Virus record (IMG/VR): IMGVR_UViG_2671180422_000003
Coordinates: 1-13,716 of that record
DNA length: 13,716 nucleotides
Reading direction: 5' to 3' (one strand)
DNA from: a virus
Lineage: Duplodnaviria; Heunggongvirae; Uroviricota; Caudoviricetes
Shown: positions 12,001 through 13,716 of the stretch, one piece after another
Layout: each line of letters begins with the position of its first letter
Position numbering within the stretch: position 1 is the first letter of the stretch
Position numbers: made by a program

Positions 12001-13716
12001 GATGAGTCATCGTGGCATCTCGTTGAAGACCATCGGGGTAAAACGGTTTATGACGTAGCGTCAGGGGACGCGTTATTTATTTCTGAACTCGGTCCGTTAC
12101 CGGAAAATGTTACCTGGTTATCGCCGGAAGGGGAATTTCAGAAGTGGAACGGCACAGCCTGGGTGAAAGATGCAGAAGCAGAAAAACTGTTCCGGATCCG
12201 AGAGGCGGAAGAAATAAAAAACAGCCTGATGCAGGTAGCCAGTGAGCATATTGCGCCACTTCAGGATGCTGTAGATCTGGAAATCGCAACGGAGGAAGAA
12301 ACCTCATTGCTGGAAGCCTGGAAAAAGTATCGGGTGTTGCTGAACCGTGTTGATACATCAACTGCACCTGATATTGAGTGGCCTACGAACCCTGTCAGGG
12401 AGTAATCATTGGGATTATGCCGCAGCACGTCGTATGCAAGAACGTGCTGCGGTTGGATGCTATTTTTTCCCTGAAGCGGAAAACATTACTACAGTTATGA
12501 CGATGAATTACAAGGGGTTAAATGATGCCACGGCATAGCGATATTGAAATAGCCTGGCATGCTTCAATACAGTGGGAACCGAATGGCCGGAAGACCGTCA
12601 CCACACAGCGGTTTGTCTAGGGACTGAGCAATGTTCACAGGTACTGGGCTATGAGGGGCTGTTAATAAACTGATAAATACGGCGACACCATTTAGGTCAG
12701 CGTAGCCGGTAAATCGAAAAGCAACTTCATCCAGGAATTTCTGTCAGTGTTGTTTGGCGATCTGATTGCCATGATGGATCAAGAGTTCTCTCTCATTGCC
12801 GGCTTGGTGTTGACTGAAAACTGGTATGATGCCGGGCGCATGTTGGCTAATCATTGGGAATACTGCCGACACTGAACCATTCGCTCTTTTGATTTGGGTC
12901 GGTGCGACATAGCATGTAGGGAGTAAATCAATGACTGAATTTCTTGGAAAACTGTTCGACAGGGTTTATACGGAGAAGGATTTCGGCATTAATGTCGCCA
13001 TATTTGTCGCGGGACTTGCCGGAATGAGCTGTTATCTGCTCCTTCACGACTATGTCCTGACGCTGTTCGCATTTATTATTCCATTCCCGATCGTCAAGAT
13101 CATTGCCGGAGGATGGCATCAGCGTCTTCTTGCCCAGAAAGGAAAAGCTGCTTCAAGGCAGCAGTTGGCCGCACTTTATGATTCACTTACGGACAGTGAA
13201 AAAAACGTGGTACAGCACTTTGTAGCATTCGGCGGTGCTGTGATGACATGGGGACAAATGAACCGGCTTGATGATCCGCAAACTGGTGTGGAGTCCCTGG
13301 TTCGGAAGGGATTACTGGGTACCTCCGTGTCCGTGGATGGAATGCACGAGACCTTCGAGCTGGATCTGACGCTTTTTGCCTTTGCTTACCGTTGGCGAGC
13401 CTCTCAGAATACGGACTCTGCGGCAGAGGGTTAAGGCGTACGTGAGGTATCCGGAGATGCTAAAAGCGCGGAACTCATTAATCCTCGCCCTAAGGGAAAT
13501 ACGTTCTTTCAGAATGGTGGTCAACTGTTCTGCCGAAAGTGTAAAAGGATGGTAATAAAAAACCCGGCTTTGCCGGGTTTTTTTACTTTATGCAGCTTTT
13601 CGATTCATAGCCTTTAGCTCTTGATCGATAAATGTTTGAATTTCTTTGATTTTATCAACGTTTTTGATGGCTTCTCGCAACAGCGCAATGCGGCGTGCTT
13701 CAATTTTATTCATCAT

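What the first reader, a model, noticed from the sequence alone, without database searches (positions are those of the whole stretch)
12931..13585. Small membrane protein at the distal end of the prophage: candidate exclusion or defense moron
A well-initiated 167-aa ORF with two N-terminal transmembrane helices and a soluble C-terminal domain lies after the tail-fiber module and is closed by a strong bidirectional terminator, convergent with an AT-rich gene. Prophage ends after the tail fiber genes are known hotspots for superinfection-exclusion and anti-phage cargo. The two-helix-plus-soluble-domain layout resembles SieB-type exclusion proteins, but I cannot confirm homology from sequence alone.
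Basis: inference. Interest (0 to 1): 0.6.

Follow-up and report, generated by a model that had tools for sequence, protein, structure and literature searches.

The report
Divergent SieB-like membrane protein, prophage cargo
This small membrane protein at the tail-fibre end of a lambda-like prophage is a real, conserved gene and a distant relative of SieB, the classic phage protein that makes an infected cell abort a rival phage's growth; it travels as single-gene cargo in anti-phage hotspots of many mobile elements, but its activity has never been tested.

Summary
A 167-aa ORF (12931-13434, +) has a strong ribosome-binding site, a two-helix membrane hairpin and a soluble C-terminal domain. It lies after the tail-fibre assembly gene and ends at a strong bidirectional terminator (13557-13583) shared with a convergent AT-rich 42-aa gene.

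The gene is under purifying selection (dN/dS 0.08-0.31).

- Pfam SieB is the top hit for this protein, but below the curated cut-off, and the top hit for 30 of 79 relatives.
- BLASTP against P22 SieB gives E = 0.002.
- Profile-profile comparison with lambda SieB gives E = 2.3e-5 over almost the full length, more than 10 sd above shuffled controls.
- Structure models of this protein and lambda SieB have the same order of elements: amphipathic N-helix, two TM helices, a stalk, a winged-helix-like domain and a C-helix.

Homologues sit in phage Ayreon, at the P2 Z/fun hotspot, in a prophage early region, on an IncI1 plasmid, and beside Pycsar, Gabija-like, NERD and RES genes.

Best reading: a stand-alone SieB-family abortive-infection/exclusion protein. 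The function is inferred, not shown. No Esc-type internal start and no promoter were found. I rate it a new member of a known kind, of moderate interest.

The parts
12918..12922 (+). Shine-Dalgarno sequence GGGAG, 8 nt before the ATG
   Evidence: Read directly from the sequence. An equivalent AGGAG/AAGGA precedes the start codon in all 7 homologous loci.
12931..13434 (+). 167-aa coding sequence, a divergent SieB-family protein (stop codon included)
   Evidence: ORF list. dN/dS is 0.08-0.31.
12934..12981 (+). N-terminal amphipathic helix, residues 2-17. It holds the family's most conserved motif (R11-V12-Y13-x-E15-K-D17).
   Evidence: The AF2 model has a helix at 2-13. The hydrophobic moment is 0.61, reached by 2.6% of shuffles. 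Y13 and E15 are nearly invariant across 79 clusters. In P22, removing the first 24 residues turns SieB into its inhibitor Esc (annotation).
12982..13116 (+). Transmembrane hairpin: TM1 at residues about 18-38, a two-residue loop (His39-Asp40), and TM2 at about 41-62
   Evidence: Hydropathy and AF2 helices 18-37 and 41-84. The basic stretch after TM2 (pI 10.3) places the C-terminal domain in the cytoplasm by the positive-inside rule (inference).
13117..13182 (+). Basic stalk helix continuing from TM2 (residues 63-84)
   Evidence: AF2 helix 51-84. It has 4 K/R against 1 D/E. The lambda SieB model has the same element, H48-98.
13183..13365 (+). Acidic winged-helix-like domain (residues 85-145) with the 'SLTxxEK' and 'GVESLxxRGLL' motifs
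13366..13431 (+). C-terminal helix and variable tail (residues 146-167)
   Evidence: AF2 helix 146-165. The tail is variable in the alignment.
13557..13583 (.). Bidirectional intrinsic terminator, shared with the convergent 42-aa gene
   Evidence: Terminator scan and folding of both strands. It is annotated as a terminator on both strands in phage Ayreon.
12705..12875 (+). Decayed remnant of a former upstream neighbour gene; context only, not a functional part
   Evidence: tblastn with the 194-aa protein encoded directly upstream of the Cronobacter homologue gives 51% identity over 96 aa. The match is interrupted by stops.

Best explanation
The ORF encodes a stand-alone, divergent member of the SieB superinfection-exclusion family, carried as non-essential cargo by an Ayreon-type lambdoid prophage.

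Shown here:
- It is a conserved protein-coding gene.
- It has a short amphipathic N-terminal helix, a tight two-helix membrane hairpin, a basic stalk and an acidic winged-helix-like C-terminal domain.
- This is the same order of elements as in a model of lambda SieB.
- Its family profile aligns significantly with both lambda and P22 SieB.
- Its homologues occupy variable cargo or defence hotspots of unrelated mobile elements.

Inferred:
- Both termini face the cytoplasm.
- The acidic winged-helix domain is a protein-recognition (sensor) module rather than a DNA binder.
- When a heterologous phage infects the lysogen, the protein is triggered. As described for P22 SieB, it then halts macromolecular synthesis midway through the lytic cycle, so the cell aborts the infection.
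- The arrest probably comes from the N-helix and TM hairpin perturbing the inner membrane.
- The conserved N-terminal helix is likely the effector or gating element. In P22, the in-frame product that lacks the first 24 residues (Esc) is an inhibitor instead of a killer.
For: Real gene:
- ORF and ribosome-binding site.
- dN/dS 0.08-0.31.
- 137 clusters at 50% identity were found by a profile built from close homologues only.

SieB homology:
- Pfam SieB is the top hit, E 0.06.
- PHROG 1301, the P22 SieB/Esc family, scores E 0.0087.
- 30 of 79 relatives hit Pfam SieB, best 3.6e-8.
- The nearest clusters score 15-26 bits; P0046 reaches 26.3 against a cut-off of 26.
- BLASTP against P22 SieB gives E 0.002, with 24% identity over 110 residues running from TM2 into the winged helix.
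- hhalign of A2 against lambda SieB: probability 76%, E 2.3e-5, 134 columns.
- hhalign of A2 against P22 SieB: E 2.6e-4, soluble domain only.
- Shuffled and reversed controls had mean score 12.3-12.4, sd 1.7-2.0, maximum 18.6, against 30.5 and 37.3 observed.
- The result holds using only the 15 closest clusters (E 4e-5).

Same architecture:
- AF2 models of this protein and lambda SieB have the same element order.
- The N-helices of all three proteins are amphipathic.

Cargo and defence context:
- Functional temperate phage Ayreon, 99.4% identity, between the side tail fibre and integrase genes (PMC5764929).
- An intact lambdoid prophage at prfC.
- An e14-like prophage end, after pinE and a GIY-YIG gene.
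- P2-like phages, between the tail-fibre assembly and sheath genes, which is the Z/fun locus. That locus is a known antiviral locus (PMC13586616).
- An Edwardsiella prophage, between int/xis/exo and the repressor, with an AAA_15/21 ATPase and DUF4145.
- An IncI1 plasmid.
- Islands with a Gabija-like pair and a NERD-helicase, a RES-domain protein, and Pycsar.

SieB phenotype: taken from PMC10883804.
Against: - The window protein itself scores below Pfam's gathering threshold (13.4 against 26 bits).
- The narrow profile A1 gives only weak hhalign values: probability 2.6-7%.
- No single homology statistic is overwhelming; the best hhalign probability is 76-84%.
- No PADLOC model matches.
- There is no in-frame ATG/GTG/TTG between codons 2 and 31, so there is no obvious Esc analogue (sequence).
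- No sas-like antisense element is conserved.
- No convincing promoter lies upstream. The only consensus hit is about 360 nt away, and fewer sites were found than expected by chance. Expression in the lysogen is therefore unproven.
- The gene is not in the immunity region where the sieB genes of lambda and P22 lie.
- The mechanism of SieB itself is unknown, so every mechanistic step after 'homologue of SieB' is inference.
- Neighbourhood association with defence genes is suggestive only.
Confidence: 0.6

Rival explanations
1. It is a membrane-tethered winged-helix transcription factor, comparable in layout to ToxR/CadC-type one-component regulators. It would regulate prophage or host genes rather than attack incoming phages.
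Against: The winged-helix domain is acidic: pI 4.6, with 9 D/E against 4 K/R. Its 'recognition' helix (PQTGVESLVR) carries the invariant residues E121/S122 rather than basic or polar DNA-contact residues. No HTH family reaches significance. The only consistent family signal is SieB. The gene moves alone between unrelated elements with no conserved target or neighbour.
Confidence: 0.1
2. It is an inner-membrane entry blocker that prevents DNA injection or transfer at the membrane (true superinfection or entry exclusion, as with P22 SieA, T4 Imm or plasmid entry-exclusion proteins). It would not cause abortive infection.
For: It is membrane-anchored and sits in prophage cargo positions. One copy lies inside an IncI1 transfer region, between trbC and nikB. 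SieA-type blockers are also small inner-membrane proteins (PMC10883804).
Against: The periplasmic exposure is only about two residues (His39-Asp40). Almost all conserved sequence is cytoplasmic (inferred topology). No similarity to SieA, Imm or exclusion families was found in Pfam, PHROGs, NCBIfam or PADLOC. The detectable homology is to SieB, which acts after injection.
Confidence: 0.12
3. It is a conserved accessory membrane protein with a function unrelated to phage defence. Examples would be a lysogenic-conversion or stress factor, or the toxin of a decayed toxin-antitoxin pair. On this view the SieB similarity reflects only a shared fold.
For: There is no phenotype data. The protein is below the Pfam threshold and has no PADLOC hit. 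A decayed upstream partner gene exists. Prophage ends also carry virulence and fitness cargo; a DinI-like gene lies nearby.
Against: The partner has decayed while this gene stays intact under purifying selection. That argues against a constitutive toxin that needs an antitoxin. The gene repeatedly sits beside recognised defence systems and in the P2 Z/fun locus. The sequence similarity to SieB extends over nearly the whole length, not only the fold.
Confidence: 0.18

Closest known systems
SieB of Salmonella phage P22 (192 aa; with Esc and the sas antisense RNA)
   Same: Both have an amphipathic N-terminal helix, two TM helices and a cytoplasmic C-terminal domain. The shared motifs are 'L(F/Y)DSLT..E(K/R)' and 'SL(V/L)(R/K)KG(L/I)(L/I)'. 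BLASTP gives E 0.002 and hhalign E 2.6e-4. Both are prophage-borne single genes.
   Different: Identity is only about 24%. P22 sieB lies in the immunity region between ral and gene 24, and has its own mapped promoter. P22 makes Esc from an in-frame start at codon 25 and uses the sas antisense RNA (PMC12197685). Here there is no in-frame start codon before codon 32, and no conserved antisense element was found. The TM1-TM2 loop is about 2 residues here, against about 20 in P22.
SieB of phage lambda (Pfam PF14163 prototype; P0160)
   Same: hhalign of the family profile gives E 2.3e-5 over 134 columns. The alignment covers the N-helix ('GRVF' against 'DRVY'), both TM helices, the stalk and the winged-helix-like domain. 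The AF2 models have the same element order.
   Different: No pairwise BLAST similarity. The narrow lambda-SieB HMM does not score this family. The lambda gene lies between N and ral. Lambda SieB has a longer periplasmic loop containing a short helix.
MarR/ArsR-type winged-helix domains
   Different: The similarity is in fold only (6-17% identity). This domain is acidic and membrane-tethered, and no HTH family is detected by sequence.
Single-gene cargo at phage defence hotspots (P2 Z/fun, old/tin; lambdoid morons)
   Same: It occupies the same variable slots. In P2-like phages that slot is between the tail-fibre assembly and sheath genes (PMC13586616). In lambdoid phages it is after the tail-fibre genes.
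   Different: No sequence relation to Fun/Z, Old or Tin was detected; no PADLOC or Pfam model other than SieB scores. No activity has been tested.

Membership tests
SieB family (Pfam PF14163; lambda and P22 SieB) | Scores at or above the curated Pfam gathering threshold (26 bits) | tested here: not met
   The window protein scores 13.4 bits, E 0.06, although SieB is its top hit. Relatives at E about 1e-27 to 1e-34 score 15-26 bits. P0046 scores 26.3 bits, and the best of 79 has E 3.6e-8.
SieB family (Pfam PF14163; lambda and P22 SieB) | Profile-level homology to experimentally defined SieB proteins | tested here: met
   hhalign of A2 against lambda-SieB homologues gives E 2.3e-5, probability 76%, 134 columns. 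Against P22 SieB it gives E 2.6e-4. BLASTP against P22 SieB gives E 0.002. Controls with 100 shuffles each had a maximum score of 18.6, against 30.5 and 37.3 observed. The result is robust to using only the closest 15-45 clusters.
SieB family (Pfam PF14163; lambda and P22 SieB) | Architecture: short N-terminal segment, two TM helices, cytoplasmic C-terminal domain of about 100 residues | tested here: met
   Hydropathy. The AF2 models of this protein and of lambda SieB have the same element order.
SieB family (Pfam PF14163; lambda and P22 SieB) | In-frame internal start giving Esc, an N-terminally truncated self-protection product | tested here: not met
   P22 esc starts at codon 25 of sieB. 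Here codons 2-31 hold no ATG, GTG or TTG. The first in-frame ATG is Met32, in the middle of TM1 (sequence).
SieB family (Pfam PF14163; lambda and P22 SieB) | Located in the immunity region (between the N/24 gene and ral), expressed from its own promoter in the lysogen | tested here: not met
   Here the gene lies after the tail-fibre assembly gene. Phage Ayreon has no other SieB-like gene. No convincing promoter was found. One homologue, in Edwardsiella, does lie between int/exo and the repressor.
SieB family (Pfam PF14163; lambda and P22 SieB) | Antisense regulatory RNA (sas) within the gene | tested here: inconclusive
   A weak minus-strand terminator-like hairpin lies at 13162-13147. It is not conserved in six homologous genes. 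No minus-strand promoter was detected.
SieB family (Pfam PF14163; lambda and P22 SieB) | Abortive-infection phenotype: macromolecular synthesis stops mid-cycle in superinfected lysogens | not testable with these tools
   The phenotype is described for P22 SieB (PMC10883804). Testing it needs wet-lab work.
MarR/ArsR winged-helix transcription factors | Sequence membership in an HTH family and a basic DNA-contacting recognition helix and wing | tested here: not met
Known anti-phage defence systems (PADLOC-DB v2) | Match to any defence-protein model | tested here: not met
   0 families at E <= 10.
Class II holins / lysis proteins | A small two-TM protein inside the lysis cassette, next to the endolysin | tested here: not met
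   The window has its own lysis cassette at 7675-8917, with a candidate holin ORF (93 aa, the position of Ayreon's annotated holin; not checked by a family scan), a lysozyme (Pfam) and a candidate Rz ORF. This gene is 4 kb away and carries a 105-residue cytoplasmic domain. There are no holin family hits.

The most novel reading that the evidence does not exclude
This family is a previously unrecognised, widely mobile branch of SieB-type single-gene abortive-infection proteins. An acidic cytoplasmic winged-helix domain senses a phage protein. A conserved amphipathic N-helix plus a TM hairpin then executes membrane-level growth arrest. Unlike classical sieB, it works without Esc/sas self-protection. 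It has spread to P2 Z/fun hotspots, lambdoid tail-end cargo slots, IncI1 plasmids and defence islands. Its compact, well-modelled domains would make the 50-year-old, still unknown SieB mechanism experimentally tractable.
Probability: 0.4. Interest if true: 0.55.

Novelty: new member of a known kind. Interest (0 to 1): 0.38.

Why it matters
SieB is one of the oldest known prophage exclusion systems, yet its mechanism is still unknown. Its family is so divergent that lambda and P22 SieB do not find each other by tblastn.

This work links an unannotated 'hypothetical protein' to SieB. That protein is present in 67 of 5426 complete E. coli genomes, in the temperate phage Ayreon, in P2-like phages, on plasmids and in defence islands.

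The link does three things. It extends the family beyond the immunity region. It gives a testable domain model: N-helix effector, TM hairpin, acidic winged-helix sensor. It also flags a cheap single-gene candidate for phage-challenge assays.

This is an annotation and hypothesis gain, not a new principle.

Tried and rejected
1. Direct family scans. NCBIfam gave only a spurious enolase hit. PADLOC gave nothing. A PDB sequence search gave only spurious pentatricopeptide-repeat hits, summed over repeats.

2. Pairwise BLASTP against lambda SieB found nothing. The narrow lambda-SieB HMM does not score this family, and the A1 HMM does not score lambda SieB. hhalign with the shallow profile A1 is weak. 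Only the deeper family profile A2 gives significant alignments.

3. Foldseek against AFDB50 was unavailable. Foldseek against BFVD gave only weak winged-helix hits, best E 9.7e-3.

4. A third protein search, using the lambda-SieB alignment, added little diversity and did not reach P22 SieB.

5. An Esc-like internal start: no in-frame ATG, GTG or TTG in codons 2-31. Rejected.

6. A sas-like antisense RNA: the minus-strand hairpin at 13162-13147 is not conserved in homologues. Rejected.

7. Promoter: the only consensus hit is at 12544-12573, and fewer sites were found than expected by chance. A conserved 'CTTTAGT' / 'CATAGCA' lies about 20 nt before the start codons but was not interpretable.

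8. A two-gene cassette with the upstream gene: the 194-aa Cronobacter neighbour is only a decayed remnant here, and other homologues have different neighbours. A partner is therefore not required.

9. An apparent 0.8-kb 'insertion' in some E. coli matches (two BLAST pieces) is not real; the gene order is identical.

10. The genome-contig scan with A1 returned no confirmed locus, and A2 was too divergent for that tool.

11. The cluster look-up of distant relatives gave only unnamed metagenomic sequences.

12. The exact window arrangement, with its structural-module deletion, is not present at 80% coverage or more in any complete E. coli genome.
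Full report
**1. The observation**

The window holds a 167-aa ORF at 12931-13434 on the + strand. A GGGAG Shine-Dalgarno lies 8 nt before the ATG. Seven homologous genes from other loci all carry AGGAG/AAGGA at the same distance from an ATG, GTG or TTG start, which fixes the start codon.

Hydropathy gives two adjacent hydrophobic helices, about 18-38 and 41-62, separated only by His-Asp.

The ORF is followed by 122 nt of untranslated sequence and then a 12-bp stem terminator at 13557-13583. The stem is flanked by an A-run and a T-run, and it folds well on both strands. 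A convergent 42-aa gene (13716-13588, GC 0.36) ends at the same hairpin.

Upstream lie a tail-fibre assembly gene (Caudo_TAP, 11821-12405) and a tail-fibre chimera.

Pairwise dN/dS among seven alleles is 0.08-0.31, so this is a selected protein-coding gene and not a chance ORF.

The only corrections are that the coding part stops at 13434 and that this particular prophage is defective.

**2. The surroundings**

The window is a lambdoid prophage. Pfam identifies an S24 repressor, CII, an Ash-family protein, DUF968/HNH, antiterminator Q, a DNA methylase and a lysozyme; the holin and Rz assignments rest on ORF position and on Ayreon's annotation of the matching genes. The ORF at 9791-11821 joins a tape-measure N-terminus to a tail-fibre C-terminus.

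Positions 1-9707 and 12260-13716 are 97-99% identical to the functional temperate coliphage Ayreon (PMC5764929). In Ayreon the same gene (99.4% identity) lies between the side tail fibre gene and the integrase gene.

In an intact relative integrated at prfC, the gene follows stf/tfa. It is followed in turn by two small convergent genes and a DinI-like gene.

Between tfa and the ORF lies about 525 nt with no intact gene. Positions 12705-12875 are a decayed remnant of a 194-aa gene that is intact upstream of the Cronobacter homologue.

**3. What the protein is**

Direct scans gave only sub-threshold hits, but they pointed one way:
- Pfam SieB (PF14163): E 0.06, 13.4 bits against a cut-off of 26, covering residues 41-142.
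- PHROG 1301, the P22 SieB/Esc family: E 0.0087.
- NCBIfam, PADLOC and PDB sequences gave nothing meaningful.

A word-indexed search found 25 close homologues in Enterobacterales, none with a Pfam domain.

A profile of 17 of them (A1) was searched against 1.84 billion representatives and found 137 clusters. Of 79 near-full-length members (A2), 30 hit Pfam SieB at E <= 0.01 (best 3.6e-8), and no other family recurs. The nearest clusters score 15-26 bits over TM2, stalk and winged helix, and one passes the curated threshold.

I then compared the family with the two experimentally defined SieB proteins:
- Lambda SieB homologues (A3): hhalign with A2 gives E 2.3e-5, probability 76%, over 134 columns that span nearly the whole protein.
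- P22 SieB: BLASTP with the window protein itself gives E 0.002, with 24% identity over 110 residues.
- P22 SieB with A2: hhalign gives E 2.6e-4, restricted to the soluble domain, so the match is not driven by TM composition.

Controls support these values. One hundred residue shuffles of P22 SieB and one hundred column shuffles of A3 gave scores of 12.3 +/- 1.7 and 12.4 +/- 2.0, with a maximum of 18.6, against 30.5 and 37.3 observed. Reversed sequences scored 13.6 and 17.8.

The lambda result persists with only the 15, 29 or 45 closest clusters (E 4e-5 to 7e-6).

Lambda and P22 SieB do not detect each other by tblastn. Weak statistics are therefore normal for this family.

**4. Structure**

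AlphaFold2 on A1 gave a mean pLDDT of 72.7, with about 90 for residues 85-145. The elements in order are:
- helix 2-13,
- TM1 at 18-37,
- TM2 running into a long stalk (41-84),
- then H88-100, E104-106, H107-110, H116-125, E129-133 and E140-144,
- and a final helix 146-165.

Other features of the sequence:
- The winged-helix domain is acidic (pI 4.6), while the stalk after TM2 is basic (pI 10.3). By the positive-inside rule both termini are cytoplasmic, and only about two residues face the periplasm (inference).
- The N-terminal helix is amphipathic, with hydrophobic moment 0.61. Lambda (0.53) and P22 (0.56) are similar.
- That helix holds the most conserved residues of the whole family, Y13 and E15.
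- In P22 the Esc product, which starts at codon 25 and so lacks exactly this segment, inhibits SieB instead of excluding.

**5. Where the family lives**

The family is present in 67 of 5426 complete E. coli genomes. Of these, 38 carry this allele and 29 carry alleles of 60-80% identity (73% and 67% in the copies examined).

Contexts found:
- Lambdoid prophage ends.
- Phage Ayreon.
- The end of an e14-like prophage, after pinE and a GIY-YIG gene, next to paoABCD.
- An IncI1 plasmid, between trbC and nikB.
- Klebsiella/Raoultella islands with DUF2971, a 1650-aa NERD/helicase protein, a Gabija-like AAA_15/21 plus UvrD pair, and an integrase.
- An Edwardsiella lambdoid prophage, between int/xis/exo and the repressor, beside an AAA_15/21 ATPase and DUF4145.
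- A Cronobacter island with a HEPN_RES_NTD1/RES protein.
- A Pantoea plasmid, directly after a Pycsar pair (PycTM plus cyclase).
- Two P2-like viral contigs, between the tail-fibre assembly and tail-sheath genes. From my knowledge of the P2 map, this position is the Z/fun locus, and that locus is cited as an antiviral locus in PMC13586616.

The neighbours differ everywhere. The gene therefore moves and presumably acts alone.

**6. Mechanism**

P22 SieB stops cellular macromolecular synthesis midway through the lytic cycle of superinfecting P22-like phages (PMC10883804).

By homology and context, the most likely role is a single-gene abortive-infection/exclusion protein. I propose that the cytoplasmic acidic winged-helix domain recognises a phage product, and that the N-helix and TM hairpin execute the arrest at the inner membrane.

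Only the anatomy, the homology and the contexts are shown. The trigger, the effector step and even expression in the lysogen are inferred.

**7. Differences from classical sieB**

- Position: the gene is at the tail end, not in the immunity region.
- There is no in-frame start that could give an Esc analogue.
- There is no conserved antisense element.
- No promoter was identified.
- The periplasmic loop is much shorter.
- Ayreon has no other SieB-like gene.

**8. Rivals**

- A membrane-tethered transcription factor. The fold fits, but the domain is acidic and there is no HTH sequence signal.
- An injection or entry blocker. The protein is in the membrane, but almost nothing is exposed to the periplasm, and the homology is to a post-injection system.
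- An unrelated accessory function, or a decayed toxin-antitoxin pair. The partner gene has decayed while this gene stays under selection.

None of these is excluded without experiments.

**9. Verdict**

The gene is best filed as a new, divergent member of the SieB family sitting in a non-canonical cargo slot.

Membership at Pfam's own threshold is not met by this protein, and the Esc and sas features are absent. I therefore state homology with about 0.8 confidence and the anti-phage function with about 0.5.

Interest is moderate. The gene is a useful annotation and a cheap experimental candidate that could help open up the SieB mechanism, but it is not a new kind of system.

Noticed in passing
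window 12705-12875 (+): Decayed remnant of a gene whose intact 194-aa form lies directly upstream of the Cronobacter homologue (L014 7369-7953). By eye, the intact form has a ribbon-helix-helix-like N-terminus. The remnant shows 51% identity over 96 aa and has stops on both sides. This suggests an ancestral two-gene arrangement that was lost in E. coli.
   Followed up: partly
window 9791-11821 (+): A chimeric 676-aa ORF. A tape-measure N-terminal domain (TMP_2, residues 101-285) is fused to tail-fibre Collar and fibre repeats. A terminase small-subunit-like remnant lies at 9733-9993. The head and tail module has been deleted, so the prophage is defective. No complete E. coli genome in the collection has this exact arrangement.
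   Followed up: partly
window 5618-6043 (+): A 141-aa ORF with a lipoprotein-type signal (MKKVLIAAIGFCLVGC) lies between antiterminator Q and the DNA methylase. It has no Pfam family and is also present in phage Ayreon. It is a second possible cargo gene, placed downstream of Q.
   Followed up: no
window 6621-7673 (+): An N6/N4 DNA methyltransferase (PF01555) with no adjacent restriction gene lies between Q and the lysis cassette. It is an orphan phage methylase, conserved in Ayreon.
   Followed up: no
L020 6850-8877 (-), next to the homologue at L020 6001-6504: In a P2-like viral contig, the SieB-like gene shares the slot between the tail-fibre assembly and sheath genes with a 674-aa NERD-domain protein on the opposite strand. 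This protein is a candidate defence gene.
   Followed up: partly
L006 6988-7479 (E. coli plasmid p7_33_46A-2): A copy with 67% DNA identity lies inside an IncI1 transfer region, between trbC and the relaxase gene nikB. Only two or three plasmids in PLSDB carry the family, so it is not a core IncI1 gene.
   Followed up: partly
L016 5900-7810 and L011 11826-14965: The homologues' neighbours include a Pycsar pair (PycTM plus a cyclase with an AGS_C domain). They also include a Gabija-like pair: a 575-aa AAA_15/21 ATPase plus a 471-aa UvrD helicase.
   Followed up: no
window 13147-13162 (-): A terminator-like hairpin (GCTGC-N6-GCAGC followed by a T-rich run) lies on the antisense strand inside the ORF, at the junction between the TM region and the soluble domain. 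It recalls the P22 sas RNA idea, but it is not conserved in six homologous genes.
   Followed up: yes
window 13588-13716 (-) and beyond the window end: A convergent AT-rich 42-aa gene (MMNKIEARRIALLREAIKNVDKIKEIQTFIDQELKAMNRKAA) starts exactly at the last base of the window. In related prophages it is followed by a 120-aa hypothetical gene and a DinI-like gene before prfC.
   Followed up: partly
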